Shown here: in pieces, positions 1-55,014 of the stretch
Numbering within the stretch: position 1 is the stretch's first letter
How the letters are laid out: the number at the start of each line of letters is the position of its first letter
Assembly (NCBI GenBank): GCA_964016885.1
Contig: OZ024758.1
Coordinates: 6,138,001 to 6,202,000 of the forward strand
Origin: Eledone cirrhosa
Taxonomy: Eukaryota
Direction: 5' to 3'
DNA length: 64,000 bases
The notes under the pieces: model-generated
Seen by the model: only the letters and a program-made list of their open reading frames with translations
What the model was told of the DNA's origin: nothing
Database searches by the model: none
Translations under genes and position numbers: made by a program

Positions 1-225
1 AGCCTTGACCCTAAATCAGAAATTATTATTATTATTATTATTATTATTAGAGCGGTGGATTGGCAGTATCGGTAGAGGGTCTGACCTCCATGCTTTGCAG
101 CATAGTTACGTCACTTTACGGTCTGAGATAATACACTGGGATAATTGCTGGCCTTGTGCCAAAAGTAGAAACAATTATTACGTTTTTTTGTTTTGTTTAC
201 TCAATGACTTTTATACACAATGACG

Positions 226-243
226 GAAACAAAATGGCGCCGA
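226..243 (+). promoter_or_regulatory. YY1-like AAAATGGCGCC motif, possible promoter/TSS region
   Basis: cggaaacaaaatggcgccg in locally CpG-containing unique sequence; its ATG frame stops after 4 codons. Confidence 0.3.
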
Positions 244-1975
244 ATTAAACACTTTGTTGTTTAGTATTTTCCATTGAGATCGACTTTGCTTCCATTTTCG
301 CAAGCGGAATATTCAAGAACTCCGTTCGTTTAATCCTATTAAACACCACCTTCCAAAATTTGTAGTTTCTTATGTTAAAAATCTATAATACACTGTATCC
401 ATTCTTTACAAATGTATCGTTGTTTTACTCGAATTCAAAGATTAACGGAAAAGTCATTTTATTTTCTTTGGTCTTTGTTTTTCTTTTGGTTTTGATTGCA
501 GCAATATTTCGAGTACCTCTGTTAAGTGAGCGAGGTTAACAATCAGGGCTTAGCTTTTTCTTCTGGATATCACATTTAAATTCAACTATGCTGTGTCCAT
601 CATCACACATTTATGAACTCCGCATTCTATGTATGTAGGCTCCCGTAGCTCCTACGGGAGTCATAGGGGCACCGTAGTGACATAGTGTTTATAGGGCATT
701 GTTTAAACCTGGCAGAACCTATCTCCTCTCCAGGTCTGAATACAGCAGATTTCTTCCAGAGAATGAAAGTGAGAAAGAGATATAGAGGAAGAATCGTACT
801 AAAGTGTGACATTTCTTATCGACCTTAAATGGATGAAAGGTAAAGTTGACCTTGGCGGGATTTGAACTCGAAGAGCAGAGAACTCGAAATGAATACTGCA
901 AAGCATTTTGACAACTCGCTACCTTGAACTACCTATTAATTGTCATTAAATGTTGTCTGGCAGTCCTTTGTTTCCAAGAATTATTTATTGGTCCTCTGTT
1001 TTTCTTCATAAGACAGGGAATGTATTTCATATTTACTTATTTTGATCACATTACAATTGTAGAATCATCTCTAATTAATTTCGTATTCACTTCGTGGCAA
1101 TAATGACAGGATTTTAATTACATATTTCTGATCTTGTCAGCGTAACGTTGAATTTTAATTTTAATCTTATTTATGGAAAATCGGATAAGCTTTTTCTTTA
1201 ATGAAAGAGTAGCGTCAGAGGGTAATGAATGTGCTTATCAAACATCGAATATTCAAATCAGAAAGGTAGATAGATAGATATATAGATAGATAGATAGATG
1301 TAGATAGATATTAGATTGAAAAAGCCACAGATAAATAATAGGTTAGAAATATTCGAAAGATTTCAAAACCGAGGTAGATGAGACTCCTTGTTCACATTGG
1401 TGACAACTTTTCAGGTGATCAGTGATGAAGGTAGATGAGCTACGGCTCAGTAGCAAGCTTCTGGGAAATTGTTAGACGAGGATTCGGGACTCACCAACGT
1501 CATTTTTTCCTTCGGTGAAAATCATGGACATATAACATCATATAAATAATTGGAGCAAATGACCATGATCCCTAATCCTCAACAATGAAGATGGGAAGAG
1601 ACCAGACTATATACATATTGCAATAAACAGATCAAACTAATAGTTATTGCACTATGTAATCATGTCTTAAGTATATACATCCACTAAATACGTTTTATTG
1701 ATTCTGTCTACAGGGTGGTCCGAAAGTCTTGTTACCCTCTACCAAAAAAGTAATGAGAAACAGTTTATGTTCCCATCACAGTATCGTCCTCTTCGGAGGA
1801 GCTGGTTTGTCGAATTTTGCAGTGAGGTCATGTCACACACCCTCCATGCTCTTGCCAGAATGCACATGATCATGTGTCCATAAACTTGCAAGCAGCCTTC
1901 CTTCCAAACTATAGGAGCTCGTGTCAGCCATCTGAAATAGAAAATTATATTATTATTATTATTATTATTATTATT

Positions 1976-2168
1976 ATGGTGGCTTGGCAATATCGGTAGA
2001 GGGTCGGACGCCATGCTTTGCAGCAAAGAGTTACGGCCCTTTATGGTCTGATTTCAAATCCCGCCGAGGTTAACTTTGCCTTCCATTCTTACGGGGTCGA
2101 TAAAATAAAGTACCAGTAATACACTGGGATAATTGCTGGCCTTGTGCCAAAAGTAAAAACAATTATTA
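1976..2168 (+). mobile_element. tRNA-derived SINE family A (about 200 bp; GCCTTTCATCCTTACGGGGTCGATAAAATAAAGTACCAG core, Nin/Deu-domain-like)
   Basis: A-box TGGCAGTATCGG, B-box GTTCAAATCC, (ATT)n tail; more than 25 full or partial copies in the window. Confidence 0.85.
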
Positions 2169-2183
2169 TTATATATTATAATT

Positions 2184-2365
2184 AATTGTTTCTACTTTTG
2201 GCACAAGGCCAGCAATTATCACAGTGCATTACTGGTACTTTATTTCATCGACCCCGTAAGGATGAAAGGCAAAGTTAACCTCGGTGGGATTTGAACTCAG
2301 ATCACAAAGGGTGGTAGCTCTATGCTTCAAAGCATGGCGCCCGACCCTCTTCCAATCCACTGCCC
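2184..2365 (-). mobile_element. SINE family A, inverted partner of 1976-2168
   Basis: Reverse complement of the same consensus. Confidence 0.85.
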
Positions 2366-2485
2366 TATATATATTATAATTAATGATATATCATATTATT
2401 AAAACAAAAAATAATGAAAGTTAAAACAATATGTGATAAGGGGTGACAAGACTTTCGGACCACCCTGTAGATAACCATTTCAAAG

Positions 2486-2558
2486 AGATGTGATAATTCT
2501 ACACCAAATCATTCCAGAATGCTTGTTTCACTTCGTTCTGTGTTTAAATTACGTGAAG
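2486..2558 (+). CDS. RH-domain gene exon (acceptor uncertain, start 2486 or 2488)
   Basis: Open frame DVIILHQIIPECLFHFVLCLNYVK ending AAG|gtagat, phase 0; an in-frame TAA at 2472 limits the acceptor to the AG at 2484-85 or 2486-87. Confidence 0.5.
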
Positions 2559-3597
2559 GTAGATAATATAAGAACTAACAGTAATGTAAAAGGTGACCCT
2601 CCTCACTGCTCACTGGCTCCGTCCGTCAACCCCTCCTACAGAACGCTACCTTATTACTTCTAACCCTTGTAATATACGATACGCGTGACATAAGATATCT
2701 CCCTTATCTTTTCAACTTTAAAAAATGGGTTGCCTCCTCTTTTTACTCCTACAGTCATATATGTGTGTGTGTGTGTGTATGTGTGTGCGTGTGCGTCTGA
2801 CGGACAGTCAGACGGAGGAACAACTCTTCTTTTATATTAATTATGATGATGATTATAATATATCAAGGCGTAGTATTATAATGAATTAATTAAAATATGT
2901 ATCCAAATCGTAGGTATGTGACTGGTCAAGAACTTTATTGCGGTACATGCATTCGAAACCAGGCATTTCAATGGAGGACATGTCTTTACTCGTCACGAGA
3001 CTACACCGGGAACTCAAATCTATTGAAGTAAGTATTAGCAAAGATAGTTTTTTGAAAATCCAAAATCGAGACCCAATTTAATTTTTACTAACTTCAGTTC
3101 TTTTTTTCTTTCTTTTTTTATCGTTTGTTTTGTTTTTAAGCATAATTCAGTGGAAGAGAGACATTGGTCAGGAGCTTTCTTCTTTCAGACGAAAGGCAAA
3201 GCTAACCTCGGCAGGATTAAATCTCAAATCATTTTCCTTTTTGAATACTCTGTTTTTATTGCTGTATTCTAGAAAAGAAAATGTTATAATCGACCCTTAC
3301 GGGGTCGATAAAATAAAATACCAGTCACGCACTGGGGTCGATTTAATCGACTTTCCCCTCCCCCAAAATTGCTGGCCTTGTGCCTATATAAGAAACCATT
3401 GTTATTATTTGGATTGGCAGTATCGGTAGAGCGTCAGACACCATACTTTACAGCCTAGAGTTACGACCCTTTATGATCTGATTTCAAATCCCGCCGAGGT
3501 TAGCTTTGCCTTTCATCCAATAATGCAATGGGGTCAATTTAACCGACTTTCCCCTCCCCAAAAATTGCTGGTCTTGTGCCTAGAGTAGAAATCATTA

Positions 3598-3639
<42 letters not shown>

Positions 3640-6568
3640 ATTTCTTTTATTTATTTATTTATTTATTTATTCTTTGCTTTTCTAGCGGATATTACTGGAA
3701 ATTATATCCTACTATGAGAATCTTCCACGGTGCAAAAAACATTTTGACAGAATATTATACAAGGTTTGTACATGTCTAAAATAAATAAAACAAAACTGTT
3801 CTATTTTCTAGTATTGTAAACATTATGAAAATCAGCTGGCTCAGTAGATATGTTGTAATGTTACAAGTCGAAGAATCAACAGTTAGTATTATTGTATTAT
3901 TACAGTTAGTATTATTGTATTATTACAAAGGGCGGTGAATTGGCAGTATCGGTAGAGGGTCGGACGCCATGCTTTCCAGCATAGTTATGTCCCTTTACGA
4001 TCTGAGTTCAAATCCCGCCGAGGTTGACTTTGCCTTTCATCCTTACGGGGTCGATAAAATAAAGTACCAGTAATGCACTGGGTAATTGCTGGCCTTGTGC
4101 CTAAAGTAGAGACAATTATTGTATTATTACAGCTAACCACCATAAAGCTATTTCGAATCTCTCTGAGTCAGGAAATAAATAATTTGCTTTAAACCAGGCA
4201 TGGGCAACCTTTTTCGAGAAGCGGACCGCATGAGATATGGCTCATCATCAGGCGGGCCACATGAGATATGGCTCATCATCAGGCGGGCCGCAAGCGCTAA
4301 TTTACATTCACGCCCACATTTGAAAAAAGGGGCGGTAACTCAGGTTGTTTTGATTTGTTTCTTCAGAATTCGTACACGTTGTTTTCTTCGATCATAAAAA
4401 TGATAGAAAGATAAATTACGACTGAAAAGTTGGGTAAAAAAAATACCAGTAATGCATTGGGGTCGATTTAGTCAATTTTCCCCTCCCCAAAAATTATTGG
4501 CCTTGTGCCTAAATCAGAAACCAATATTTAGGGCGGTGGATAACATGCTTTATGGCATAGAGTTACGACCTTTTATGATCTCAGTTCAAATCCTACCGAG
4601 GTTAACTTTCATCCTTACGGAGTCGAGAAAATAAAGTACCAGTAATTCACTGAGGTCAATTTAATCGACTTTCCCCTTTCCCCCAAAATGGTTGTCCGTG
4701 TGCTTAAATCAGAAAGCATTATTTAGTCCCGTTACCTTTCATCTCTCCAGGCTGCTACGACTTAGTCTCTACTGTACTACTACGACTTAGTCTCTACTGT
4801 ACTACTACGACTTAGTCTCTACTGTACTACTACGACTTAGTCTCTACTGTACTACTACAGAGCCTTTACCAATCTTTATTGTTATTGTTTAACTTCTTTT
4901 TATTGTTTATATTGTTTTTATTGTTTATTTTCTCCTAGATCAAGAACTATTGGCCCAATTTACTGGAGACTCCTCTTCGCTTTTCTCTTTCCGACTTTGA
5001 AGGCATCCATATGTGTTTCAACAATGAAAAACCAAGTAAAGATATATTTTACCCTCTTGTTGTTAAATCACACGAGTCGATAATTCAACATGTCCGCCAT
5101 AAATGTAAGGTGAGTCTTCAAAAAATGGATAATAATGTTAAACGTACAATATTTATTTTGTGATGTAGTCTTTCCTTCTTCTTGTTCTTTGTCTTCTCCT
5201 TCTTCTTATTCTTTTCCTTCTTATTCTTTTACTCCTCCTTATCCTTCTTCTTCCCCTCGAGAATGTCGTGGGGAACAAAGTCCTCAAACACTCCTTCCAG
5301 CGGGTCCTGCCAGAAGCAACTATTTCCAACTGACCCAGCTAGATCCCCAAGCAAGACCAGCCTTGCTCGGAGTCTACCCCTGGATCTCCTGCCGATTAGT
5401 TTTGCCCACCAAATCTGTCTAGTGATTCTTTCCTGAGACATTCTAACCACATGTTCATAGTATCGGAGCTGTGATCTCTCAATTCGGAGAAGTAGCGGCT
5501 CTACCTGGAGTGACTCTCTGATCTTTGAGATATGCACTCTATCTAGTAACTCTTTACGATGCTGAAAATGTGTTTAGTAGCAGAGATGTGTAATGATGGT
5601 AAGGCCAAGATTTTGAAGAGATTTTGAGGGTTCTAGTTGTGTGATGTTCATAGTTAGGGGTGGGCTGGTGTGTGATAGTGTCTTCTTGAAATTTGTAGTG
5701 AATGTATATTTTTGCTATTAAAGGAGACAAGATTGACATGACTCCGTTGGAGGATATTTTTCGATGCTTCTCTTCATGAAGTCTTTAGATACCATATTTG
5801 GTATCTAAATCAGAAACCAATAAATATTGGTTTCTGATTTAGGCACAAGGCCAGCACTTTTTGGGGAGGGGAAGTTGATTATATCAGCCTCAGTGCATTA
5901 TTGGTGCTTTATTTTATCGACCCCGTAAGGATGAAAGGCAAAGTTAAACTCGGAACGTAAAGGGGCGTAACTCAATGCCACAAAGTATGTTGTCCGACGC
6001 TCTACTGATACTGCCAATCCGCCATCGCTGGTTATTTCTGATTGAGGCACAAGGCCATCAATAATTATAGCAATCATAATGATAAACAATTATCCAACAT
6101 CTACCATAAATTCTGTTCCTCCATTTCAGGTCTGTATTAGTCAATCTTATATCTGTGCTATTTGTGGCCCAGTTTCAGTTGATGAAATGAATAGTGAATA
6201 TGATGATCCTCTTTATCCCTTTGAAAGCTCTGTTTTCAAGTGTCCAAATGAAAACTGCACATCCCCTGTTTGTGTTCACAGGTCAGTAAACAAAGTTAAC
6301 TTCTTCTTCTTCTTCCCGTGGCTCTTGTTGGAAGCAACGTTTTGAATCAGAGGAACTGTTGTCATTCCAATTTTATAGAGACGGTCAGCTGTACAGGGTC
6401 CGAGCCTGGAAATATTGACTTAAAAAAACAACAATGATGATATAAAATATACTCAATTATTAATTTTTTGTAATATTCTCTTCTTTCAGGGGATGTCTTA
6501 GGAGAAGCCTTAGGAGAAATCCAGACTTTCATTGTCCATCTTGTGAATCCAAGATTGAATATGAGTAA
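2486..6568 (+). CDS. Divergent Rubicon-homology (RH, zf-RING_9) domain protein of the DEF8/PLEKHM1/PLEKHM3/Rubicon family; at least 6 coding exons, 5' end unresolved
   Basis: Exons about 2486-2558, 2914-3027, 3686-3763, 4939-5109, 6130-6281 and 6490-6568 join with GT-AG ends and matching phases (0,0,0,0,2). Spliced product: ...DVIILHQIIPECLFHFVLCLNYVK|VCDWSRTLLRYMHSKPGISMEDMSLLVTRLHRELKSIE|RILLEIISYYENLPRCKKHFDRILYK|IKNYWPNLLETPLRFSLSDF...IIQHVRHKCK|VCISQSYICAICGP...DPLYPFESSVFKCPNENCTSPVCVHR|GCLRRSLRRNPDFHCPSCESKIEYE*. The motif order IP..H..KV / FSLSD / H-x3-C-x2-C-x5-C-x2-C / LYPF / C..C..H-x2-C / C-x2-C matches the RH domain as I recall it. Confidence 0.75.
2914..3027 (+). CDS. RH-domain gene exon
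   Basis: tag|GTATGT...ATTGAA|gtaagt, 114 nt, VCDWSRTLLRYMHSKPG...ELKSIE. Confidence 0.7.
3686..3763 (+). CDS. RH-domain gene exon
   Basis: polypyrimidine tract + tag|CGGATA...TACAAG|gtttgt, 78 nt, RILLEIISYYENLPRCKKHFDRILYK. Confidence 0.7.
3930..4120 (+). mobile_element. SINE family A
   Basis: Near-full copy of the consensus. Confidence 0.85.
4755..4858. repeat. Minisatellite, about 4 x 25 bp
   Basis: CTACGACTTAGTCTCTACTGTACTA perfect copies. Confidence 0.95.
4939..5109 (+). CDS. RH-domain gene exon
   Basis: ttttctcctag|ATCAAG...TGTAAG|gtgagt, 171 nt, open reading frame. Confidence 0.78.
5260..5555 (-). mobile_element. RTE-clade LINE 3' fragment
   Basis: LLLRIERSQLRYYEHVVRMSQERITRQIWWAKLIGRRSRGR, a typical RTE ORF C-terminus, followed by a purine-rich tail. 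Confidence 0.7.
6130..6281 (+). CDS. RH-domain gene exon (zinc-binding Cys/His)
   Basis: tttcag|GTCTGT...CACAG|gtcagt; VCISQSYICAIC...LYPFESSVFKCPNENC...VH. Confidence 0.8.
6490..6568 (+). CDS. RH-domain gene last coding exon
   Basis: ttctttcag|G GGA TGT...CPSCESKIEYE TAA; phase 2 matches the previous exon; AATAAA at 6702. Confidence 0.78.
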
Positions 6569-6780
6569 ATGAGACAACAGGAAGAAACATCAAGCCTATC
6601 AATGCAGCAGTTTTCTTTATGTCTTTAACAGTGTTATAAGTATTTCTTCTTCTTTTCCAGTAATAACATAACACAATAGATAAAGTAGGAAAGAAGAGGA
6701 AAATAAAGAAGTAAATTATGATAACAGATTGTTTTTGAGATAGAGAAGTTAAAAATATTTATAGGATTTTATAGGATTGA

Positions 6781-7530
6781 TTCTTTCTAACATTGGCTCA
6801 AGGACAACAATTTGGGGGTAGGGAAAAGTCAATTGATCCTAGTACTTGACTGGTATTTTCATTTTATTCAACCCAGATGGATAAATAGCAAAGTTGACTT
6901 TAGCAGGATTTGAACTCAGAATTTAAACAGCTGAAATAACTGCCACATATCATTATATCCAACATTCTAATGATTCTGCCAATCCATTGCACTAAATATA
7001 ATTACTATTGGGTCGTCAAGTATGAAATTTATAGAAGTTTGTAGAAAAAAAGCAAATTTCTACAAAAATTTCATACTTGACGACCCAATACTAACAATAA
7101 TTGTTTTTACTTTTGGCACAAGGCCAGCAATTATACCCAGTACATTACTGGTACTTTATTTTATCGACCCTGTAAGGATGAAAGGCAAAGTTAACCTCGG
7201 CGGGATTTGAACTCAGACCATAAAAGGCCGTAACTCTTTGCTGCAAACTAACAATAATGGTTTCTATAAGGGTTTATGATTTAGACACAAGGTCAGCAAT
7301 TTTGGGGAGAGGGGAAAGTCAATCAAATTGACCCTAGTATTTGACTGGTAATTTCATTTCTTTCAACCTAGAAGGATGAAAAGCAAAGTTGACTTTGGCA
7401 GGATTTAAATTCAGAATGTAAACAACTGGAGGGGGGGGGGGGGGGGGGTAAGTGGATTAAATCGACCCCAGTACATTACTGGTACTTTATTTTAACAACC
7501 CTGTAAGGATGAAAGGCAAAGCTAACCTCG
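6781..7530 (-). mobile_element. Cluster of SINE family A copies (at least 4)
   Basis: Repeated ttggcacaaggccagcaatt...ttttatcgacccc...ggatgaaaggcaaagttaacctcgg. Confidence 0.8.
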
Positions 7531-17600: not shown

Positions 17601-20600
17601 AATTTGACTTCTATTTCTAGAAGGTTGGGCGACTGCAACGGGACTACATTATAGGCTTTATCAGTTTACAGGGCTCAACTGAGTTCCTCCTGTGGATGTA
17701 GATGTCACTCCTGTGAGTGTAGTCATAGGTATTATATAGATGTCACTACAGTGAGTGTAGACATAGCTATTATATAGATGTTAAAAGGGCTGATCACCCA
17801 TTGATGGATACTTCTCATTCTGAAAATGTTTGGATTAATTATGGAAGAAATTTAGGTGAGATACTTACTGCCACAAACAAAAGAGGTTTTATTGGGTGGA
17901 AGAGAACACGCTGAACTATGCCTTTTGACTTTGAAAATGGATTCTGTAGAAGAAAAAAGAACACTATAAGTAATACAATAGATTCTCTTTTATCTGAAAT
18001 GTTTGTGACTGGAAATATTTTAGATTGTGGCATGATTATATATTTGCATTTATACAATGGGACAGCTTCATCATCGCTGTTTAACGTCCGTTTTCCACAT
18101 TTGCATGGATTAGACATGTTGTCATGTTACGAAAGAAGTCAGATCAGGGGACCAGGGCCTGCTCATACGGATCTGTATTGAAGATGAAATCAAAATCTAA
18201 ACACATTATCCATTTGCATTTTACATTACAGCTTATATATATATATATACACATATAAGTATGTATGGTAAAATGTCATGGTCTCTTTTGCAGTGTCTAT
18301 ATGTTGAAGGACATATAAAAACACACATATACATACACGTTTTTTCCATACATGTTGACAGCCTTGCATTTAAAAATTCCGTTTTCAATCAAAACTCTTT
18401 AGTTACTATGGTAACAATACTCTCCCTATTTCTCAATGTATTTTTCTTATCAACAACAAACTGTTGATTTTTTCTTGGAACTAATTTTAATTTATCTATT
18501 TTTCATACACTCTCTCACTAACAACAACCTGTCATTATAGTGAAAGTCTTTTTTTTGAAGGTGAAACAAACACACTAATAAACCACAAAACAGACAACAT
18601 TGAAAAGAAATCAAACATTTATTACTGACCTGTGATCTTCTCTTTGTCAACTGATGAATTAAAACAGCCATGCTATGTGCTGATGGCATCACAGATGTAA
18701 AGTAGTCACCTTTGGCATGCCATGACACGTGGTTCACTCCCTGTGGAATATAAAACAAAGCAATTTTGTTCCTGCAGTCGAAGATATGTTTTATCTAATT
18801 ATTCTAGAAGACTCTTATTAACTATTTTACAATTCTTAAGCTCATTTATCACCTAATTTGATGTTCTAATGACTCTGCCAATCCACCACCTTGAAACCAT
18901 ATATAACATCTAAACTATAATAAAGTAAGGCATGCAGGACTGCGTATGATTTATTTCTTTTAATCCAGTTAGTAAAATAAGTTGGATTACTTTGAATAAT
19001 AATGAATGAATATTACATAAATTATCTACTAAATTTCATAGCTGTTGATTAAATATATTTTATTGCTTATTTAAAGATTCACTTCTTTAAAATTTTCAAA
19101 TGTCAACACTTCTGGTTAGCGATCGCTTAAATAAACATTCATATATTTCTGTCACTAATTTTCTCCTAATGCAGTTTATATATAATATCGTCTTTTTTTA
19201 ATGTATCATGGATTACTTTACTGATTACATAAGACAGCGTAACGCAATCTTCATTCAATTTCTGTGTATATTGTCAATTACGATTTTATTTGATGTATCA
19301 TATCTACATGTATATATACTTGCGTATAATATCAATATGCACACTGCACATGCTAGCAGATAACCACCCGAAGGGTGGTTTTTCTGCTAGTGTAGATAAA
19401 AGAGATAGAAACCAACCTGTGGATGAGTAATTTTCAGTCGGAGTCCAACATCATAGTTTTTACCATCAAATGACTCCCAAGTAACAATATTGGCCTTTTC
19501 TGAAAATAATTAAATATTAAGTATTACGATAGGTTATCTTATAGAGCACTCTAATACAAACATCAAACAAGATGTACTCTGAATAGGGAAATCATGACAT
19601 AACATAACTTCTGGATTTCGAACAAGTCTATTTGCAGAGGTCATCCCTCTTCAAGTTATACCTTCAGGAATATAAAGCAATAAAACAAATTTTAACCCTT
19701 TAGCATTTAAACCGGTCATATCCAACCAGAGTTCTCTCACTTCTTTCTGTTCAAATCAGCCATAACTGGCTACTCATACTGTTAAGGTATTGTTCTCAAA
19801 ATAAATAATATCAAAATCTCACAGATTCGATATTATGTGAGATAATTATATAAGATAAAGCCTTTACCACAAAGGCAGCTTGAAGAGAGTGAGCTGCATT
19901 TGACAGTATTAAATAGGGTGCATCCAGCTACAAAAAAGGTTGTAACTGGCTGCTCATACTGATGTTAAGGTATTGTCCTCAAAATCTCATAGATTTGATA
20001 TTATGTGTGATATCGTGGAAGACCATGAAAAACATGGGCGGAGGTGGTGAGAGCAAACCTCAGATCACTGGAGCTCATGGAGGAGATGACAAAGGACCAT
20101 GACGAATGGAGAGATGCCGTGCTTAATAAGACCCGTCCCACCCTTGCAGGCAGGGAAAAGCGGACGTATGATGATGATGATGAATTGAGTGTGATAAAGC
20201 CTTTACCATGAAAATATAAAAGTAAATATAAAGTAAAGTAAATGCTAAAGATTTAAAAGTCTATTAACGAGTTGTATTATTAATATAGAAATAGACTCCT
20301 CCTTACTCTGTACATTTTCTTCATCTTCAGTGGTTGTTTCCGCGGCAACAAAAGATTTCAACAGTTCATCCGTACCAGATACAATCAATTTATCTATAAC
20401 ACCAGGATTAAGAATAACCACAGACCAGTTTCTGGAATATAAAACACAATAACTGATGAACATGATGATGATGTTGAATAACTATGTTAATTATTACCAT
20501 ATATACTGAAATATAAGCCAACCCAAATACAAGTCGACCTCCCCTCATATTTTATTTCTGAGAAATGGGCATAAATCCAATCCCCGTTTATAAGCTGAGG

Positions 20601-23600
20601 CAGCTAACATGTTGTTTAGATGTCATAAACCAATACCCCACCTTTACCATCGATTTTTTAGTCACTTCAGCGAGATTTGAACTCAGAACGTAAAGGGTTG
20701 TAACCATATGCCATAAAGCATGTTGTCCAATGCTCTATTGGTACTGCCAATCCACTGTTCTAATAATGACTTTTGATTTAGGCACAAGGCCAACAATTTT
20801 CTTGGGGGGAAGGGGAAAGTCGATTAATTTCCCCCCAGTGCATTACTGGTACTTTATTTTATCGAACTTGTAAGGATGAAAGGCAAAGCTAACCTCAGAA
20901 TGTAAAGGGATGTAACCATGTACCACAAATCATGTTGTCCAACGCTCAACCAATTCTGGATATCCACAACACTATAATATCATAACAGTCGTGGTTTCTA
21001 CTTTAGGCACAAGGCCAGCAATTTTGGGGAGAGGAAAGTCGATTGAATCAACTCCAGTGTATCACTGGTACTTAATTTTATCAACCTCGTAAAGATGAAA
21101 GGCAAAGCTAACCTTGGTGGGATCTGAATTCAGAAAGTAAAGGGCCTTAACTATACCGCTAAGCCTGTTGTCTGATGCTCTACCAATACTTCCAATAAAC
21201 TGCCCTAATGATAATGGTTTATGATTTAGACACAAGGCCAACGATTTTCGGGGGGCGAAGGGGAAAATCAATTAAATCAACCCCAGTGTATTACTGGTGC
21301 TTTATTTTATCGACCCTGTAAGGACAAAAGACAAAGCTAACCATACAATAGAAACAACAAAGCAAAAGACTTACACAACAGCAACTAAAAGACAGAGTGA
21401 AGGGTTGGGGTTCCAAGAAATACTCTTAACTGTGTCCTCAACAGATATTGTCCTGAAGCAACGACCAGTAGATACTTCCCAAATTTTGATGGTGCAATCA
21501 TCAGAACCTGTTATAGATAAATAAATAAATGGATATATATACATATATATATATGTATAAACATATTTAACTCAAAAGTAGAGTTTTGAAATGCGAGTGT
21601 ATAGGAATCTCAGGAAAAATGGGAAAACTCGGTGTATGGAAGCTGTTAGAACAACAAAATACCGTCAAAGCAGCGTTGGATAAAATATTACCTCGAAGGA
21701 AGGAAGAGGGATGAAAGCGAACAGGTCACAAACATTAAAATATGATTTTCAGATCTCAAACACCTACAGTTTCGAAGAATTGTTAGAGGCTGAGACTGGA
21801 TGAGCATATTTTAATGTTTGACCTGTTCGCTTTCATCATTTTTTCCTCCTTCCTTCGAGTCAACTCACACTTAGCCGCTGATCTTTGTCCTTCGACAGTA
21901 TTTTGCTGTACAGCTTCTATACACCGAATTTTCCCATGTTCCTGAGATTCATATATATAAATACACATATATATATTGTGGATATATATATATATAGGAT
22001 GAAATAAAATCAGGATTCATTTAAAAAAAAACAAATAAGGTTATGAAAATCTAACTTACCAGATGCCAACCACTGTCCTTTTGGATGAACAGATATACAC
22101 CGTACCATACTTTTGTGACCTTTGTAGACCTAGACAATGACAATGATAAGGGGAATGAGAAAAAAACCATAAATTATAATTGCAGGAAAATCAGTGACTC
22201 GAATGATAAACCCTCTTTAGCTGGGGAGATGTCTTGCCTGAATGGGTTGAAAACAGGAGCAAGAAGTGGGGCCAAGTATATCATCAGTGTATGACAATGA
22301 GGTGGGGTGGAGTGGGATATAAGGATGGATGACAGGTGTGATGGAAATTGACAGGGTGAAGCAAGGGAGATAAGCAGGATGATGAAAATAGCTGTTGAAG
22401 AGTTATGACAAGTGTGGTGGGATTTAAAGAGGTAAGGGATGGTGGTAGTGGTATTAGATGGGGTGGAGTACAGTAAGGGAAAGAATGGTTACGAAAAAGC
22501 TATGACAAGTGTGGTGGTATTTACTAGGGTAATCTCAGAATGGAGAGGTGATGAGAGTAATTATTAAAGAGTAATGGTGTGGATGGGTCAGATGCATTAG
22601 ATAGGAGGGTGGGTGATGAATACTGTAGTAGAAATGGAGAGGCATCTTGTTTTTATAGGTGGATTTTCACCAGTACTGTGTCACCAGTCATCAGAGCCTT
22701 TTGTCATCTCTAATGTGATGTTCAGCTTCCTAAGGCTAGCCTTCACTACCTCATCCCATGTCTTCTTAGGTCCATCACTTTTACAGGTCTCCTCCACTGA
22801 GATTTCTTTGCACTTCTTTACACATCTGTCATCTTCCATGCGCACCACCATACAAATACTGTCTTTTATCTTGCTTCAATTTGCTTGTGATGTCTCCACT
22901 ACAGACAGATGGAACTTCACACAAGTGCCATCTCTAGCTCCAGCAATTGTAAGGATGATAATGATTACCAAGTTCTCTTGTTTGAAATCTCAGCCATCCA
23001 TCTAATAATAATACCCAGATGTATTTCACTTAACATCTAAAAGAAACTGGGGATAAATTCCAAATGAAGTATGGTTGAAGAGAGAAATATGTAATAAAAG
23101 AATGTGTATAATGTTAGAAATTAAACTTACCACTGATTGAACAGTAGGGAAAGGTTGTAAATCTTTGGGTTTTGGTAAAGTTGGAAGCAAATCTTGTGGA
23201 TCCAGATCTTTCACCTGAGAAAAGAAAATTACAAAAATACACCATGGTGATGTTACATAAAATCATCAAACATTACATTGCCATATTTGGTAGTCTTACA
23301 TAAAATCTTTAAACCTTACATTACCATATTTGGTAATGTTACGTAAAACCTTTGACATTTTGGTATATATTTTTTTACATCTTTTGAGTCTGGAAGAGTA
23401 GCATCTTCGCATACAAAATGATTCCAGAAATTTTGCAAAACCCCATTTTATTTTCATTTTCATGAAAAAAAAATCGACACAATCACTACCTTATAATAGA
23501 AAGTAATGTGGATATGGGACATGGCAATACAGTACTGTGACATTGAATAAGTGGTTTCTTCCATAAACACCAAATTATGTTTATGGCCAAGAGACTCAAA

Positions 23601-26386
23601 CTCTAAATGTCTATCAATCAACAGACTAATTAAAAAAGCAGATTCGTTAAAAAAATACTGATGTGAAAACCACATACATTTCATCATCATTTTACGTCCG
23701 CTTTTCCTGCTTGCAAGGGTGGGAGGGGAACTGATTCTGGCTTGATTTCTACAGCTGGATGCCCTTCCTAACACCAACCTCATTTACAGTGAGTACTGGG
23801 TGCTTTTTTTGCCGTGGCACCTCCACGATCACTTTGCAGTGGAATGATAGGGACCCCAGTCCCTATCATCTCATTTCTACAGCTGAGTAAACTGGAGCAA
23901 TGTGAAATAAAGTGTCCTGCTCAAGGAAACAACACATCACCCGGTCTGAGGATTGAACTCACAACCTTTCGATTGCAAGGCCAATGCTCTAACCACGAAG
24001 CCATGCGCCTCTTCCTTTGTGTTGAAGATGGAAACCCTGAGTAGAATCGAACCTCGGACCAGGATCACCACCGTCTATCATACCTACCACTAGGCCACGA
24101 AGACAGCTTCAAATTCATTAAGAGTAATTGAGAAAATATCTTGGAAGGATGAAAGGAAAAGTGGATGGCAGCAAGATTTGAACTATGAATGCAAAGCTGG
24201 AAAAAATACCGCGAGACATTTTCTCAAACGCTCTACCAATTCACTGCCATGAGAAAACAATGTAAGAATATAATGTCGTATTGATGAGGTTTTTTTACCT
24301 TCATGGTTTTCTTCCTGGGGCACAAATAGAGGTCAAGGCATCTTTCAAATCGTTCTTCAATAAATCTAGAGTAACTTGGTAACAAACGCAGTGAAGAATA
24401 CGTCTGAGGAAGTAATTTCAATCGTCGCTCGTACGGTTCCTTGCGTCTCCATACTTCCTCTTCTTCTGGTGTCAAGATATATTCAGGAGGGGGATTATAG
24501 GATTCAGCATGGCCAGGTAGTGACAGCTTGGGAGCAGCAATGTGATGTCGGAAACGTTTGTTTAGTTCTTTCTAAAACATATAAAAACAAGAACAATCAT
24601 CAACAGGATTCAACAATGAGTAACCCATCCATATTGGTTTCTAAGGACTTGAAAGTAAAGAAACACAGACAATCATAAATCATTCCAGATGAAGATAATG
24701 GTACTTACATCTTCATTGTCCTTCCACATCATGTAAAATGTTTGGTTTAATTCCTCCTCATCTGGATCAACCCGGAGTGGCTTAGGTTTCAACCAACCCA
24801 TTCTAATAGCATGTACCATCTGCCCCACCTGTACAATTGAAGGAAAAAAAAAAATGGATTCATGAAGTAGTAATGTATCATCATCATCATTTAATGTCCA
24901 CTTTCCAAGCTAGCATGGGTTAGACGGATTGTCCCATTAGAGGCAAGTTCGGTCAGTTGATCATGTCTTGCTCATATAGGACTGTTTCTGGCTAGAGTCT
25001 CACAGCTTGATGCCCTTCCTCATGCCAACCACATTTACAGTGTGTGCTGGGAGCTTTTTGTTAGTAACAACTGTGTGTTAGTAGAGACACTAAAGTACCA
25101 AATAGTAACAATTGTGTTAGTAGGGATACTAAAGTACCAAATCTTATATTTACTTTTGTCCCTCCACATCCTAAAATTCAAATTTTGACAGAGTTGATTT
25201 AAAAAAAAAATTCATCGTCATCATTTAACGTCTGCTTTCCCTGTTAGCAAGGGTTGGACAGGTCTACATAGACAAAGTCAGTACAGCGAGGCTACTGACC
25301 TCCCAGACAGGGCAGGAGTCTGTCGTCTCGCTTATGTACTGTCTTACATTCTATCAAGTGCACAGGAGAAGTTGTCATGTCTTTGACACAACTGAGGGTT
25401 CTCGCAACCTTTTGTTTGGCTGGATGCCCTTCCTACCACTTTGCAGCATGTAAAGGGTGCCTTTATAGAGTAGGTCACCAACACTAGGGAGGTTGTCATG
25501 CCTTTGACATGACTGATGAGACTTCTTCACCATTTGGCAAGCTTTCTATGGTAGGATGCCTTTCCTATCAGCCACCACTTTACAACATGTACTGGGTATG
25601 ATTATCATGTAGATCAGGCATGTCAAACTGAGGGTCCCCAGAGGGCCACACATGACAACTAATATTTTTTATTTTATATTACGCTCACGCTGTAAAAACC
25701 TTCATGTGGACCACATGTGTGCTTGTAGAGGGCCGCATGTTTGACATGCCTGATGTAGATCACCAACCACATTACATGTACTGGAGGTGTTTATGATGTA
25801 GATCACAAACACTAGAGAAGCTATCACACCTTGACATGACTGAAAGATCCTCTCGACCCCTTTATTAGGGAGGAAAAATAAAATAAAGTAAATTACTTAC
25901 TCTGAGTCTTTCCCATTTCGATGGAATAAAACTACGTTTGTGAGGTGGTTGATTAGTAACAGGAAATTTGGTTTTTTTATAGCTAAAGAAGTCAATCCAT
26001 GGCTACAAGAGAATATAAGATGAAAGAGCATTAAAATGAATCAAAGGAGTCAAAGATTTGGAATTATTTGACAGAGGAAAACACACATAAACACCATATA
26101 TCGGTTTATTTCATATCTATGATATGAAATTATCTTTATGTCTGCTGCCTGGGTGAATGTAAAAAAACAAACTACCCTGTGTGAGTGCTTGTGTAAATGT
26201 GTGTGAGTGTTTGTGTAAATGTATGTGTTGTGTTTGTATTTTTGTGGGTCTTATATTTATATTCATACATATACACACACACACATATACATCAGTGTAT
26301 TGCAATAAATTCATCATGTTATATTTATATTCATACATATGCACACACACACATATACATCAGTGTATTGCAATAAATTCATCATG

Positions 26387-26430
<44 letters not shown>

Positions 26431-29400
26431 AAAGATCAAAAACTAAAGCAGTAAAAGGCTGTAACAATGTTATAAGAAATAATTTGGAAGAGAAGTTCTA
26501 GAAATACTCACAGCAAAAGGATCCACTTCTTTGTTGGGATATTTACCTCGTTGTAATCTCTTAATAATATCTATGTCAGCATCACTAAGAACAATTTTCT
26601 GACCAGTCAGTTTATTACTCACAGTTCTCCTGAAAGATAAAACACAAAACAATTAATGAATAGGTACGTAGCTGATCTCTCAAACTTTAATAAACTATAA
26701 CCATGACATAAGTTATCTCTCTTCTCCTCTCAAATTAAAAAAAGGGGTTGTCTCCATTTGCCCTGTATACATATAAGTGTGGCAGACAAATAGACAGAGA
26801 AGCAGGTCTTCCTTTATAACAGGGGTCGGCAACCTTTTGGGCAGTGCGGGCTCCATAGCTATGCAGTGTCTTGTTGGCAGGCCACATTGCTATGCAGCAT
26901 CTCGTCTCTGGATTGTTTGTTACTGTCATGCAAGATATTATGTTCAGCTAAGTGAGTCTTGTGGCTAGACGTGTTCTCTAGTCAGTATTCTAATCCAAAA
27001 TAATTCAGAGCACTTGTTCAGAGATCGCTTAGCGTAAGATTGAAACCTGTTGGCGGGCTGGGGATTGCCGACCCCTACTTTATGTTTGTGACACTAAACT
27101 CTGCCAGTTGCAGACTGCGCATCAACATGAGATATTTTTCTCCACAAAGTTTGATCACCAACAGGAGAGTTTACAGAGCAAAGATCAAGTCCAGTCCATA
27201 TACTTACCAATAGTTGGGGTCATCCAATTTGTCAAGGAAATTATCAAGCTCATCTCCACGACTAGGTTTCTTAATCTTGTGACCATCAAGGTTATAACCG
27301 ATGTGTTCATAGTCATCATACCACTGCATTGGAATGTTACCCACTGTATTGCGAATATCCTAGAAGAGAGATAGTCAAAGGAAAGGAAATTAGCATGGGC
27401 TGGACATTAAAATAAAACAAAAACAGTAATAAGAACTAGATTGTGCATGTGTGTATGTCTGTGAATGGCATAACTTATTGAGCAGTAGTTTAACGACAAG
27501 TAGAAGGTAAACTGAGCCAGGAAAAATATAGTATTTTGATAGTTGAGACAGCTTAGAGCTTGGTGATCAGGGTTCAGTTATTGACCCCTCAGACAATTTT
27601 GACTTCACAAATATTAAATAAAGGTTAACATGTTAACATATATTTGTATCAGAAGGCATACAATAAGTGGAATGTCTAATCAAATAACCTGCTTTTGATC
27701 CCCAAATGTATTTATGTTGCTTGGTTTGGGCATGAACATCACAACTTCCTATATTTTGATACTCTCATAATTCTCTTAAAAAAAACATGAGTATTTTGTG
27801 AGTCCACCCTGTAAGGTGGCTATGCTGGTGACATGATGAAAAAGCACTCAGTACACCTCATTAGATGGTTGTTTTGGTGCCACAATAAAAATACCCAGTC
27901 CACAGTGGAATGTGGTTGGTGTTAGGAAGGGCATCTAGTCATAGAAACCAAGCTAAAATATACATCCGTATAAGCAAAACATGGTCACCTGATCTGAATT
28001 GTCTCATAACATGATAACCCATCTAAACCATGCAAGCATGAACAAATGGATGGTGGAGATATGAAGATGGTGTATGTGTGTGTATATATATATATATATT
28101 TATAAAATAGTAAGTTGACTAGACTAGCATGGGTTTCACTGCTAGTACCGGCTGCATCTCAGCGTACTCAATAGGTAGTGTTAAGTAAACTCCCAGAGTT
28201 AGACACATAGTTATTCACTTTAACACAACACACGTAAATGGGTACCTTCAATCTATACCCATACTATATATATATATCATCATCATTTAACATGTTTTCC
28301 CTGTTAGCAAGGGTTGGATGGGTCACGACAGACCAAGTCAGTACTCAAGCAGAGCTTTTGATAGCTCAGATAAACCTAGAGACTGTATCTAGCTCACTCA
28401 TATTCCTGCACCGTGCCAGGAGCTCGCATCTCACTTACCCCTTGGCATCTGTCCATAAAACATTGCCTGAAAAGGCTCTATCCAATGTATGTCAGCATTA
28501 AAGATGTAAAAAGAAAGGTAAAACAACAGCTTACTCACCTCTTCATCAGAAGAATCTTCTTGATATTCATCAACAACTGGAGGAGAATCTGATAATGGTT
28601 CAGCATTACTCTCATTTTCTTCCTTATCAACACTTTTTGACGTATTACTACTGGCCTGGTTCTTGGGATTTACCCCACTTTTGGCAGACTTTTTCTCTTT
28701 TTTAGTATTACTAGTCTTTTGCTGGGCTGTCTTGCCATTTGGTTTCCCTTTGGTTTTGTCACTGACTTTAGTCTTTGGTTCCTCTTTAGTATCATCATTG
28801 ACTTTAGTCTTTGGTTCCTCTTTAGTATCATCATTGACTTTAGTCTTTGGTTCCTCTTTAGTATCATCATTGACTTTAGTCTTTGGTTCCTCTTTAGTAT
28901 CATCATTGACTTTAGTCTTTGGTTCCTCTTTAGTATCATCATTGACTTTAGTCTTTGGTTCCTCTTTAGTATCATCATTGACTTTGGTCTTATCCTCCTC
29001 TTCATCATCATCCTCCTCCTCTACAATAGTGATATCCTGAAAAGCACCAATTTCCTCTTCATTTTCACTATTATCTGTGTTATTGTCACCGGAAACATTT
29101 TCTTCCCCTTCTACGGATTTTTCTTCATCAGATTCTTCCTCACTCTCAGACCCTTCTTCCTAAAAAATAAATTCATAAAAAAAATAATTATATATATATA
29201 AAAAAAAAAAAGAGGAATCCCTTTGCTTTTTATTTTGTCATTTTACTGTTTTACATTCAGTGACCCATGCAGCAAGGTGTTCTTAAAAGCTAACAGTTCA
29301 ATAAAGTGACACCCATTGCCATCCAAGCAGACTGGAAAACAGTATTTTACTTTACTTTAGCAATATATATAATATATATATGTTCCGAAGAGATTGTTTT

Positions 29401-31458: not shown

Positions 31459-31984
31459 GTTGGCAAACTACCATGTGTTAGTCAGCACTGACTAATCTAT
31501 AGAGAAATGTCAATTAATATTAAATATTAGTGAAAAAGAAATATTTAAAAGCTCATTAAATTAATTTATAATACAATTAAAATATAATAGGTAATAAATG
31601 TTTATAAATAAATACGTTAATTTACCAGGTAAAATCGTTTAAGCTGTTATTACGTATGATCGATTAGTTAAGACAGTTGTTACAAAACATTCTCTAATTC
31701 TAGAGATAGACACTAAAGGGAAATAACTCAAAAGTAGTGTCTCCGGCGCTACTTTCGAAACATGTTACTACAAGTTATTAACCGAATTCCTCGACGTATT
31801 TTTCTTAAATATTTTCCGTTATATGAATTGATACTGGAATAACTGGGTACTTGATGATAAAAAGAATGGATTATTCTTAACAAATTGATTTTAGTAGGTG
31901 ACTCAGCTAAGAAATGTTTGATTTCTAGATCGATATATATATATAATATAAACAGAATAAGGTTGTCACTATTTATTAAGAAAG
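31459..31984. promoter_or_regulatory. Putative bidirectional promoter and 5'UTRs between BOP1 and PIBF1
   Basis: Divergent ATGs 526 bp apart; repeat-free; small CpG-richer patch at about 31740-31800. Confidence 0.7.
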
Positions 31985-32344
31985 ATGATGGATACGGAAT
32001 TTTCTCAAATATTCCGAGATCAGGAATCTGATGACATTAGTCTTGAGACATCTGTTCCAACGGATACATTTTCTCCGGAAAGGGAACGTCTGACTAAGCG
32101 TAGTTCTCGAAGAACTAAAGATGCCCCATCAAACCCCACTGCGAAATCTATTCTTGAGAAAAAACAGCTACTTCATGATCTCCAGCTACATAAAATAGAA
32201 TCATCGCAGAAAGATATTGCCATTGATAACCTCAAGATACAACATCTGCAACGAACAGAAGAATTAGAAGAAAAATTAAACGAAGCTCTTTACCAAAAAC
32301 AAATTCTCCAGACTCGTCTGGAATCCGAACTCCGAATACAACAG
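31985..32344 (+). CDS. PIBF1: PIBF1 coding exon 1
   Basis: MMDTEFSQ...SELRIQQ|gttaat, 120 codons. Confidence 0.9.
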
Positions 32345-35300
32345 GTTAATATACGCCCTGATTATTATTAGTCTTGTTTTAACTGTGAACAAACTTCAAT
32401 ATGTTAGCAAATTGAAATATGTCATGTTTATAGTTTTCCTAAGAGTATTGGGTGTCTTTTACTTCGACAATATATTGGATCTCCATTACGGTATAAGGCG
32501 GTTCCCAGCGATTAATTTTGCTATCGTCTATTGTAATTCCATTCACATTTAGGGTGTATCTCCTTACCATCCTTTGGGGAAACACCATCTCCATGGCGTT
32601 TGACCTTCTACTGCCAATCCACCGCCATTTCCCTTTATATAATGAAAGTAATGTGTGTAGTGAAAGATTTTTTTAAAAATCATATTCTCACAATGTCGTT
32701 TCAGACAGTGGCCAGAGTCGTTAGAATGTTGGAAAGAATGCTTCATGGTATTCGTTCTGGTTTTCTGCGATCTGAGTTCGAATCCACCCCCCACCTCCCA
32801 GATCCACTTAACCTTTCATCCTTTCGAGGTCGATAAATAAAGTACCAGTCCCGTACTACTGGTTTCATTATCTCTCTCTCTCTTTCTCTCCATGCAGCCC
32901 ACTGTTCGAAATATGTTGGTCACACTTGATTTATCTGATGCTTTTCAAAGGCCATCAGAGAATTATAATTTGTAAAAGTCTATAGTTGCCTCCCTTCGAT
33001 TCTAAATTTAGAGTTAAGGACCAAGACACCTGCATGGGTGGCAGGCCTTCTTCTCTAAAGGTCTGCTATTCGGCTCTCTCAAAACTTTCTTACTACTACT
33101 ACTACTACTACTGTCAGAGATTATAGTTGTTTCCCTTGGATTCAAAATGTAGGTAATCTTAGTGCAAGTTTAGATGCGTTTTTTTTTTTATCACCAACAT
33201 GTTGTGTCACAGTTGCTAAGTGAGATGATATGTTGCATGTAAACGTTCAAGTATGTAACCGTTCAAGTATGTAACCGTTCAAGTATGTAACCGTACTTCA
33301 ACATGGCTGGGAAATATAATAGTCTGTCAACGCAAATGGGGAATAATGTGTATTCTCTGGCTCAGAGTCTTTGATTCCTTCGTCATTATGAAATCATAAG
33401 GAATGGTGGCCTAGGGTGTGGGACTTACGATCTAAGGGCGTGGGATTTACGATCAAAATGTCGTGGGTTCGATTCCTGGACTGGTTTGTGTGTCGTATTT
33501 TTGAGCAGAACACTTCAATTTACTTTGGAAATGAATACCATCAAGAGCTGAGTGTTTAACCCTGCAATGTCCAGTGGGGAGTCGTGTACTCACTAAGGAA
33601 ACGGGAATAAGCACCAGCCTGATGAGCTTGTGGGCTCGAGACAGACTTTAGACTTATTTAGTTTATGGTTTAGGACCCCCTCTCCCATAACTTCTTAATA
33701 ATTAATATGTGGTGGATTGGCAGTATCGGTAGAGAGTCGGACACCATGCTTTGAAGCATAGAGTTACGTCCCTTTATTATCTGAGTTCAAATCCCGCCGA
33801 GGTTAACTTTGCCTTTCATCCTTACGGGGTCGATAAAATAAAGTACCAGTAATGTACTGGGTATTTGCTGGCCTTGTGCCTAAAATAGAAACAATTATTT
33901 TCTAAAGATCTCCAGAAATATGTTTTTGTTGATGTAGCTTACGATTATGTTGATGAAATTATGAAATAAAAAAAAAAGTTGTTTTCTTTCCTCGTACAAA
34001 TTTGGCTTCGTACATTGTTTATCATCATCATCATCATAAATCTTCCACACTAGCATGGGTTAGACGGTTTTGTTCCATTTAATGCCGAATTGGTCAGGAA
34101 ACCGTGTCTCGCTTGTACAAAACTGTCTCTGGCAGGTTTTCTACGGCTGGATGCCCTTCCTAACCCCAACCATATTTACAGTGTGGACTGGGAGCCTTTT
34201 TACCTTGTCTCCTACATGACCACTTTACAGTGTGGACTGGGTGCTTTATGTTGTGTCTCTGACTCAGTGGACAGAAATGGGAGGATGGGGTGAGGTGTGT
34301 GGGGTAGAGTGTATATTGGCTTAAGAGATGCCTACTGACTGTTTATATATATATATACATTATATTTTAATACTTTTAGGAAGAATCCAAGCATTATCAG
34401 GACTCAATGAGAAAAGAGCTAGAAAATGTCATCAAGAAGCAACATCAGCTGGAATCATCGAATACCATATTGCGAGAGAAAGCATGTGATGTTAAAAATA
34501 GTCTACTGAACTTGAACCTCACTGAAGAAGAGTACTATGAAGTGCGGAGTAAAAAAGAAGAAGACTTGTCACTACGAGAATATGTCTGCATTAGACTTTA
34601 TGAAAAACTTTTTCCTCTCGAAAATGAAGTGAAAACACTGAAGATGGATGCTGCCAGCTCTGAGAAAGAGATGAGAAATTTGACTGATAAATTGTCGGAC
34701 TTGCAAAAACGATTGGAGGAAGAACGCTTCGCTCATGGAGAACTAAGGATAAAATACCAGAAAGTGAGTCTGCAATTGTCTGAGGATCAGACCAAAGTTG
34801 AAAGTGATATTTTTAAGATAACCAACTTTGATCATATAAGGAGTGATCGTGATAATCTTCAGCATGACCAAAATGAATTACAGCGCCATAATCTTGTGTT
34901 GGAGACATCACTTACTAATGTACAAAAGGAGCGTGATGATGTAAACAGACAGCTAGGCTGTTGTAAACAAGAGATTTCTTTGCTTCAGCAAGACAAAACA
35001 TATCTGTCTCGTCAGGTTAGTACATTTTATATAATTTAAATATGATTACATCAGGTGAGTGAAGGTGTGTGGCTGAGTGGTTAGAGAATTGGATTCACAA
35101 TTGTGAGGTTGTGAATTCGATTTCCTGGACCGGGCGATGTGTTATGTCCTTGAGCAAGACACTTTATTTCATGTTGTTCCTTCTACGTGGAGTTGCGACT
35201 GATAGTATTAGCAATTGGAGCCCGATTTGACGAAAGTCGATTGACTGTCTATGTTAGGTCAGGCTTCTGCCAGTTACTGGCACCATATAACTCAGTACAA

Positions 35301-54802: not shown

Positions 54803-55014
54803 TATACGTAACTAGATATACTACAACAGAGACATGCAAAAAGAGTTTACAGATATTGTGAGTGGTGAGGTTTGAGAGTTGAACTTGTTTACTTTAGCCA
54901 ACGATATCGTCTTGACAAATAACTCAACTGTGACTACTTAGTGCTACAGTGCTACAGTGCTGGGTAAACAGGAAAGTAAAGCTTAGCAATATAGTCCTCT
55001 TTTCACTAGTATAA

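What the first reader, a model, noticed from the sequence alone, without database searches (positions are those of the whole stretch)
2486..6568. Hidden, highly diverged Rubicon-homology (Rab7-binding type) zinc-finger gene
Seen: six short exons buried among SINEs splice in frame into about 220 aa ending in a Cys/His zinc module; the ORF track shows only one of them in the right frame. Known: RH (zf-RING_9) domains in Rubicon, Pacer, PLEKHM1 and DEF8 bind Rab7-GTP and regulate autophagy and endolysosomal traffic. Inference: the zinc ligands and the FSLSD and LYPF landmarks are kept, but usually conserved residues have changed (IPARI.HNWDF becomes IPECLFHFVLC; KGF.CE.C becomes QSYICAIC), and there is an acidic insertion (GPVSVDEMNSEYD). 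This could be a fast-evolving, lineage-specific RH paralogue, possibly a stand-alone RH domain acting as a Rab7 decoy or tissue-specific regulator.
Basis: partly seen in the sequence, partly recalled or inferred. Interest (0 to 1): 0.75.

Follow-up and report, generated by a model that had tools for sequence, protein, structure and literature searches.

The report
Octopus lipid-anchored, triple-C1 DEF8 paralogue
This is the tail end of an intact octopus gene, a fast-changing duplicate of the lysosome-traffic adaptor DEF8 that has three C1 zinc fingers instead of one and a likely fatty-acid membrane anchor, and is predicted to grip the GTPase Rab7 at a different surface from the one known in its relative Rubicon.

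Summary
The gene is real, but the window holds only its last five exons. Nine more lie 0.2-11 kb upstream. The 14-exon model gives 480 aa, with 13 of 13 introns GT-AG: an MGCxxS start, three C1-type zinc fingers, then an RH domain.

The true exon lies just before the window and keeps the ordinary landmark, so this is not a stand-alone RH domain.

It is a DEF8 paralogue: 8 of 8 introns match DEF8 in phase, and canonical DEF8 sits on another contig. Orthologues exist in three Octopus species (74% identical, against 93% for DEF8) and are already named 'DEF8-like'. All 18 Cys/His columns are kept; several Rab7 contacts of the Rubicon crystal are lost (p 0.05-0.21). A complex model still docks Rab7 (0.71, best control 0.00), at the other end of the domain.

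Expression in this species, acylation and binding are untested. No earlier scan note covers this gene. Verdict: new variant of a known kind, moderate interest.

The parts
1..2913 (+). Most of intron 9. Exons 1-9 lie upstream of the window at G000:C19:6127060-6137788 (window -10940 to -212): exon 1 with the MGCxxS start; exon pairs 2+3, 4+5 and 6+7, one C1 finger each; exon 8 with the first Cys pair of zinc cluster 1; exon 9 with the start of PF13901
2486..2558 (+).
   Evidence: adds 0.2 bits, no Pfam match, absent from the orthologues
2914..3027 (+). Exon 10 (phase 0-0), RH helical stalk; holds part of the surface on which the complex model docks Rab7
3686..3763 (+). Exon 11 (phase 0-0); holds the equivalents of Rubicon N821/M822/T825/R827
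4939..5109 (+). Exon 12 (phase 0-0); FSLSD landmark and a 9-residue insertion relative to DEF8
6130..6281 (+). Exon 13 (phase 0-2); zinc ligands, acidic insertion, LYPF landmark
6490..6568 (+). Exon 14, coding part to the TAA stop; last zinc knuckle and a short C-terminal helix lacking the arginines of DEF8 and Rubicon
6702..6707 (+). AATAAA, candidate polyadenylation signal (the only AATAAA or ATTAAA in 6569-7200; use not shown)

Best explanation
The window holds exons 10-14 of an intact 14-exon duplicate of DEF8 that encodes an MGCxxS start, three C1-type zinc fingers and an RH domain, and the protein likely attaches to membranes by its own myristoyl and palmitoyl groups and is predicted to bind Rab7 at a surface other than the Rubicon crystal site. 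Shown: the reading frame, the DEF8-type introns, the orthologues, the intact Cys/His set. Inferred history: a genomic (not retro-) duplicate of DEF8 lost DEF8's N-terminal region, tripled the two-exon C1 module, gained an acylation exon, went through a burst of change and was then kept under constraint. Inferred function: a lipid-anchored scaffold in endosome or lysosome traffic that no longer needs Rab7 to reach the membrane. Its C1 fingers would act as protein- or anionic-lipid-binding modules rather than diacylglycerol sensors.
For: Identity: 14 exons, 13 of 13 introns GT-AG, no internal stop. 8 of 8 introns from the third C1 to the end share phase with DEF8 of the same genome, 7 in the same column; the Rubicon- and PLEKHM-type loci have other borders. 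Single locus. Orthologues in O. sinensis (4 isoforms), O. bimaculoides and O. vulgaris, 351/475 identical. The O. sinensis orthologue passes the PF13901 and PF00130 cut-offs; its model's only PDB match at E <= 0.001 is 6wcw_A (E 3.1e-11). C1: each repeat is a phase 0-1-0 exon pair like DEF8's, keeps 8 of 8 ligands and beats 500 of 500 shuffles. Anchor: MGCxxS is shared with O. sinensis X2 and O. bimaculoides (7 of 10 residues of exon 1); it is the only ATG-Gly-Cys on the + strand in 90,836 bases upstream, with an in-frame stop 20 codons before it; Met-Gly-Cys directs palmitoylation in Src kinases (PMC2200018, abstract only). Rab7: equivalents of R931 and R934 are basic in 20 of 20 DEF8 and Rubicon rows and 0 of 3 paralogue rows; M822 is hydrophobic in 20 of 20 and Asn in 3 of 3. 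Complex of the orthologue's RH with an animal Rab7: 0.71 against best control 0.00, a mark reached by 51 of 78 solved and 2 of 108 mismatched pairs (eukaryotes 39 of 65 and 2 of 126); contacts agree at least 31%, partner pLDDT at least 77; contacts at residues 233-304 and 357-360, away from the crystal-site equivalents at 331-335, 404-410 and 468-471.
Against: Nothing functional is measured. The RH-only tree does not place the paralogue: AU p 0.42 with octopod DEF8, 0.53 with all DEF8, 0.14 with Rubicon. Loss at the crystal site is only marginally above background: 1 of 5 contacts kept against 39 of 57 other conserved columns, p 0.049, or p 0.21 in the register MAFFT chose. The Octopus tails still hold three lysines, and F889, K887 (2 of 3) and R827 equivalents are kept in class. 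The complex passed in 2 of 3 runs (the third scored 0.01), used the O. sinensis protein and a stand-in Rab7, and may score from memory of solved Rab complexes; with no DEF8 or Rubicon control I cannot tell whether the model docks every RH domain this way. The predicted site is hardly more conserved than the rest (20/26 against 184/257), and one contact, F299, is Gly in this genome. O. sinensis isoform X1 starts without MGC. The first two C1 repeats were not folded with confidence.
Confidence: 0.5

Rival explanations
1. Same gene and anchor, but the RH domain has stopped binding Rab7 and serves as a zinc scaffold for another partner, such as another Rab or the diverged PLEKHM-type protein on C6.
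For: Loss of M822, R931, R934 and R938 equivalents and a 10-residue insertion in the loop that carries Q895-I900; in Rubicon, T825D and the four-arginine mutant each cut Rab7 co-localisation (PMC7382272, Results read). The Octopus proteins have Glu at the T825 position. A second diverged RH gene exists in this genome.
Against: The complex model supports Rab7 binding. DEF8 itself differs from Rubicon at T825 and R827, so those positions do not discriminate. The erosion test is borderline.
Confidence: 0.25
2. A functionally ordinary second DEF8 that binds Rab7 and PLEKHM1 at the usual surface with weaker affinity; the extra C1 fingers and the anchor only tune location, for example in one tissue.
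For: All 18 Cys/His columns kept, fold matches 6wcw_A, and F889, K887 and R827 equivalents are partly kept. DEF8 is reported to stabilise the PLEKHM1-RAB7 complex (PMC10564863, passages).
Against: Only 92/303 identity to DEF8 over C1+RH; DEF8's N-terminal region has no match in 100 kb upstream; the model does not dock Rab7 at the crystal site.
Confidence: 0.18
3. One reading: a stand-alone RH domain of about 220 aa acting as a Rab7 decoy, possibly as a short isoform that starts near 2486.
For: 2487-2558 is open, ends at AAG/GTAGAT and is in frame with exon 10. O. sinensis has shorter annotated isoforms of 432 and 339 aa.
Against: No homology and no counterpart in any orthologue isoform. Its acceptors start in phase 2 or 1 while exon 9 ends in phase 0. 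Such a product would lack zinc cluster 1.
Confidence: 0.03
4. A decaying duplicate with no function.
For: About 26% amino-acid difference from Octopus against 7% for DEF8.
Against: Open frame over 14 exons, all ligands kept, 454/476 identity between two Octopus species, single copy.
Confidence: 0.04

Closest known systems
DEF8 (C1 + RH); Octopus sinensis XP_029640714 and its orthologue on G000:C1:326.50-326.55 Mb
   Same: C1 followed by RH, all zinc ligands, 8 of 8 intron phases; nearest Atlas clusters are C1+RH proteins (scores 0.85-0.87, lead only)
   Different: Three C1 fingers, not one; MGCxxS start in place of about 270 N-terminal residues; two insertions in the RH domain; short, less basic tail; 30% identity
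Octopus 'DEF8 homolog B-like' gene models XP_036365480/486/492/497, XP_014778342, CAI9715276
   Same: Orthologues: same order of domains, 73-75% identical
   Different: Automatic names only; Pfam lists a single C1 hit; no paper found that describes them
Human Rubicon RH-Rab7 complex (PDB 6WCW; PMC7382272)
   Same: RH fold with four zinc clusters
   Different: No RUN or PI3K-binding domain; crystal-site contacts partly lost; the model docks Rab7 near zinc cluster 1, which is distal to Rab7 in the crystal
Pacer (PMC11090050, passages)
   Same: An RH paralogue with altered Rab7 recognition
   Different: Pacer's basic triad (Rubicon positions 821, 911, 916) reads Glu, Lys and Thr here by my reading of the alignments, so phospho-Rab7 binding of the Pacer type is unlikely

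Membership tests
RH domain (PF13901) | Profile match over the curated cut-off | tested here: met
   Exon 9 alone 40.1 bits against cut-off 28.1; orthologue 96.4 bits over model positions 1-203. The joined protein of this genome was scored only against a home-built DEF8 profile
RH domain (PF13901) | Cys/His ligands of four zinc clusters and RH fold | tested here: met
   18 of 18 columns; predicted fold of the orthologue matches 6wcw_A, TM 0.67 by target
RH domain (PF13901) | Binds Rab7-GTP through zinc clusters 2-4 and the basic C-terminal helix | tested here: inconclusive
   Contacts partly lost; model supports binding but elsewhere; no assay
DEF8 subfamily | C1 domain directly before the RH domain, DEF8 exon structure | tested here: met
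DEF8 subfamily | Single C1 and conserved N-terminal region | tested here: not met
   Three C1 repeats; no match to DEF8's N-terminal half in 100 kb upstream plus the window
DEF8 subfamily | Orthology to DEF8 | tested here: not met
   The orthologue lies on C1, 296/319 identical to O. sinensis DEF8; this gene is a paralogue
DEF8 subfamily | Groups with DEF8 in a tree | tested here: inconclusive
   Long stem (2.7-3.2 changes per column), placement unresolved
DEF8 subfamily | Binds PLEKHM1 | not tested
   The single complex job went to Rab7
Typical (diacylglycerol-binding) C1 domains | Pro11, Gly23 and Gln27 of the C1 consensus (recalled; searches gave no usable paper) | tested here: not met
   By eye: none of three repeats has Pro11 or Gln27; the first two have a Gly at or next to position 23
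Dually acylated Met-Gly-Cys proteins | MGCxxS at the true start | tested here: met
   the start itself is inferred from orthologue models
Dually acylated Met-Gly-Cys proteins | Myristate and palmitate attached | not testable with these tools
   needs labelling or mass spectrometry
Rubicon / PLEKHM1 | RUN, PI3K-binding or PH domains; their exon borders | tested here: not met
   None in the orthologue; no RUN match on C19; different borders

The most novel reading that the evidence does not exclude
Octopods have rebuilt DEF8 into a self-anchoring triple-C1 adaptor that binds Rab7 through a second, so far undescribed RH surface at the first zinc cluster, and it works with the diverged PLEKHM-type gene on C6 as a parallel, octopus-specific lysosome-traffic module. 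If the second surface is real in other RH proteins too, the crystal view of RH-Rab7 recognition is incomplete.
Probability: 0.13. Interest if true: 0.72.

Novelty: new variant of a known kind. Interest (0 to 1): 0.42.

Why it matters
RH proteins reach lysosomes through Rab7 (PMC7382272; bioRxiv 10.64898/2026.08.07.743589, passages). A family member with its own lipid anchor, three C1 fingers and a worn crystal site is a natural experiment on what the RH domain and DEF8's C1 do apart from Rab7 recruitment, which is poorly known even for human DEF8 (PMC10564863). It also adds a membrane-traffic gene to the list of likely octopod novelties. The gene models already exist in databases, so the news is the architecture, not the gene.

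Tried and rejected
Expression: no RNA holder listed; the three runs laid gave unspliced contigs of one sample that may be this DNA's source. Neither bears on expression. The junctions of exons 7-12 could not be examined with reads. A word search with exon 12 found nothing although orthologues exist, so blanks from that tool are weak. Folding on the four paralogue sequences alone failed (pLDDT 29.8); in the 35-row model residues 1-80 and 91-150 are under 50, probably because DEF8's unrelated N-terminus was aligned there. The careful tree did not finish; the quick tree is reported, and 25 of 43 rows were left out of the smaller tree. Four high-scoring repetitive hits and one cluster member (P0017, P0018, P0020, P0024, P0164) were set aside as non-RH; no other protein among the 174 fetched scored better on a paralogue profile than on the DEF8 profile. 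No counterpart of the O. sinensis X1 first exon was found in 90 kb upstream. dN/dS could not be computed: no orthologue DNA. The original PLEKHM1/DEF8/RAB7 paper was not held. Earlier scan notes: one unrelated hit, none by sequence or words.
Full report
Observation. 2914-3027, 3686-3763, 4939-5109, 6130-6281 and 6490-6568 join in frame with GT-AG borders. A PF13901 search of the genome gave 8 matches at 5 loci, one of them 170-320 bases before the window starts. That exon is the true start of the Pfam domain.

Gene model. Reading upstream gave nine more exons. The model spans G000:C19:6127060-6144568, has 14 exons and 13 GT-AG introns, and gives 480 aa without an internal stop. I built it before seeing any orthologue. 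Searches then returned O. vulgaris CAI9715276 (82% to exon 9, best of 169 hits) and a cluster of six O. sinensis and O. bimaculoides models (2 of 139 candidates). O. sinensis X2 is colinear with all 14 exons at 351/475 identity. That RefSeq isoform sets usually rest on RNA-seq is recalled, so expression is inferred from the orthologues, not shown here.

Paralogue of DEF8. Canonical DEF8 lies on C1 (296/319 identical to O. sinensis DEF8). By their sequence and exon borders, C9 holds Rubicon (a weak RUN match lies 25 kb upstream) and C4 a PLEKHM-type gene. From the third C1 to the stop, 8 of 8 introns share phase with DEF8, 7 at the same column and 1 a column off in a gapped stretch. This intron match, plus the C1-RH order, is the basis for DEF8 descent. 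The RH tree cannot place the gene: its stem is 2.7-3.2 changes per column and no tested grouping is rejected. Identity to DEF8 is 92/303. Against Octopus it differs at 26% of sites, DEF8 at 7%. It is single-copy. No non-octopod orthologue appeared, but the 50% clusters can hide relatives and the word search is weak, so the range is provisional.

N-terminal half. Three repeats each have 8 of 8 C1 zinc ligands, each is a phase 0-1-0 exon pair like DEF8's C1, and each beats 500 of 500 shuffles on a profile from 11 of 12 DEF8 C1 domains. A sequence search of the PDB hits PKC C1 domains over the first and third repeats. They are 25-28% identical to one another and 69-80% to their Octopus counterparts, so the tripling predates the species split. 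They lack the recalled diacylglycerol-binding residues, so I read them as atypical. The protein starts MGCxxS here, in O. sinensis X2 and in O. bimaculoides; none of the fetched DEF8 proteins has such a start. Met-Gly-Cys is sufficient for palmitoylation-linked sorting in Src kinases (PMC2200018, abstract). Dual acylation is thus likely but inferred; O. sinensis X1 lacks the motif.

RH domain and Rab7. All 18 Cys/His columns are kept, and the orthologue's model matches the Rubicon RH structure. I mapped the Rab7 contacts named in PMC7382272 (parts 1-2 of 4 read: abstract, results, start of discussion) using the chain alignment; the numbering offset is my inference. Equivalents of R931 and R934 are basic in 20 of 20 DEF8 and Rubicon rows and 0 of 3 paralogue rows; R938 is Arg in 19 of the 19 rows that reach it; M822 becomes Asn; the Q895-I900 loop grows by about 10 residues. 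Against a background of 39 of 57 conserved columns kept, this is borderline: p 0.049, or 0.21 with the tail shifted by one residue. I expected the complex job to fail. It passed: 0.71 against best control 0.00, in 2 of 3 runs, contacts agreeing at least 31%, partner pLDDT at least 77; the mark is reached by 51 of 78 solved and 2 of 108 mismatched pairs, and by 39 of 65 and 2 of 126 eukaryotic ones. The Rab7 used was an animal stand-in, L122, 66/73 identical to the genome's own Rab7 exon. Switch II docked on residues 233-304 near zinc cluster 1, not on the crystal site. A like complex is solved, so the pass may come from memory, though the pose differs from it; no family control was possible. 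Two searches showed no paper describing such a site.

Mechanism. Shown: gene, domains, paralogy, ligands. Inferred: acylation holds the protein on a membrane; atypical C1 fingers add contacts; the RH domain still meets Rab7, but not through the basic helix. By analogy with DEF8, which acts with PLEKHM1 and Rab7 in lysosome positioning and endosome maturation (PMC10564863 and PMC12143387, passages), it would scaffold endolysosomal traffic. I give the identity about 0.95 and the whole mechanism about 0.5.

Novelty. The gene is annotated in three species as DEF8-like. 0 papers held DEF8, paralog and mollusc together; none of the 10 listed among 2,554 papers holding two of DEF8, octopus and cephalopod contained DEF8. 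No supplements were read; tables of octopus genome or transcriptome papers may list the gene and its tissue pattern.

Noticed in passing
G000:C6:64976950-64991100 (+); L030-L032: A second diverged RH gene. Its exon borders match the PLEKHM-type gene on C4, not DEF8, and its tail also seems to lack the arginines. No RUN match nearby. A candidate partner of the DEF8 paralogue; upstream exons not mapped.
   Followed up: partly
G000:C19 against G000:C1: In three Octopus species the orthologue and DEF8 list the same longest-contig length, suggesting one chromosome; here they lie on different contigs, so the gene or its block may have moved.
   Followed up: no
window 18400-29200 (-): BOP1 gene (PF08145, E 2e-34 for 24233-24571) with a tandem acidic-lysine repeat in the frame 28431-29159.
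   Followed up: partly
window 31961-37467 (+): Coiled-coil gene in unusually long open frames (136, 219 and 417 aa), recalled as PIBF1/CEP90-like; no Pfam match above cut-off. Few introns may mean intron loss or a retrocopy.
   Followed up: no
G000:C6:102034845 (-); L043: Only one exact match to a Rab7 switch-II pattern in the genome, so no close Rab7 duplicate was seen.
   Followed up: partly
window 54900-56400: Long low-complexity repeat with strong GC skew.
   Followed up: no
L009 6170-7150 and 8080-8430: Tandem arrays of roughly 70-base and 40-base units inside introns 5 and 6 of the gene, seen by eye.
   Followed up: no
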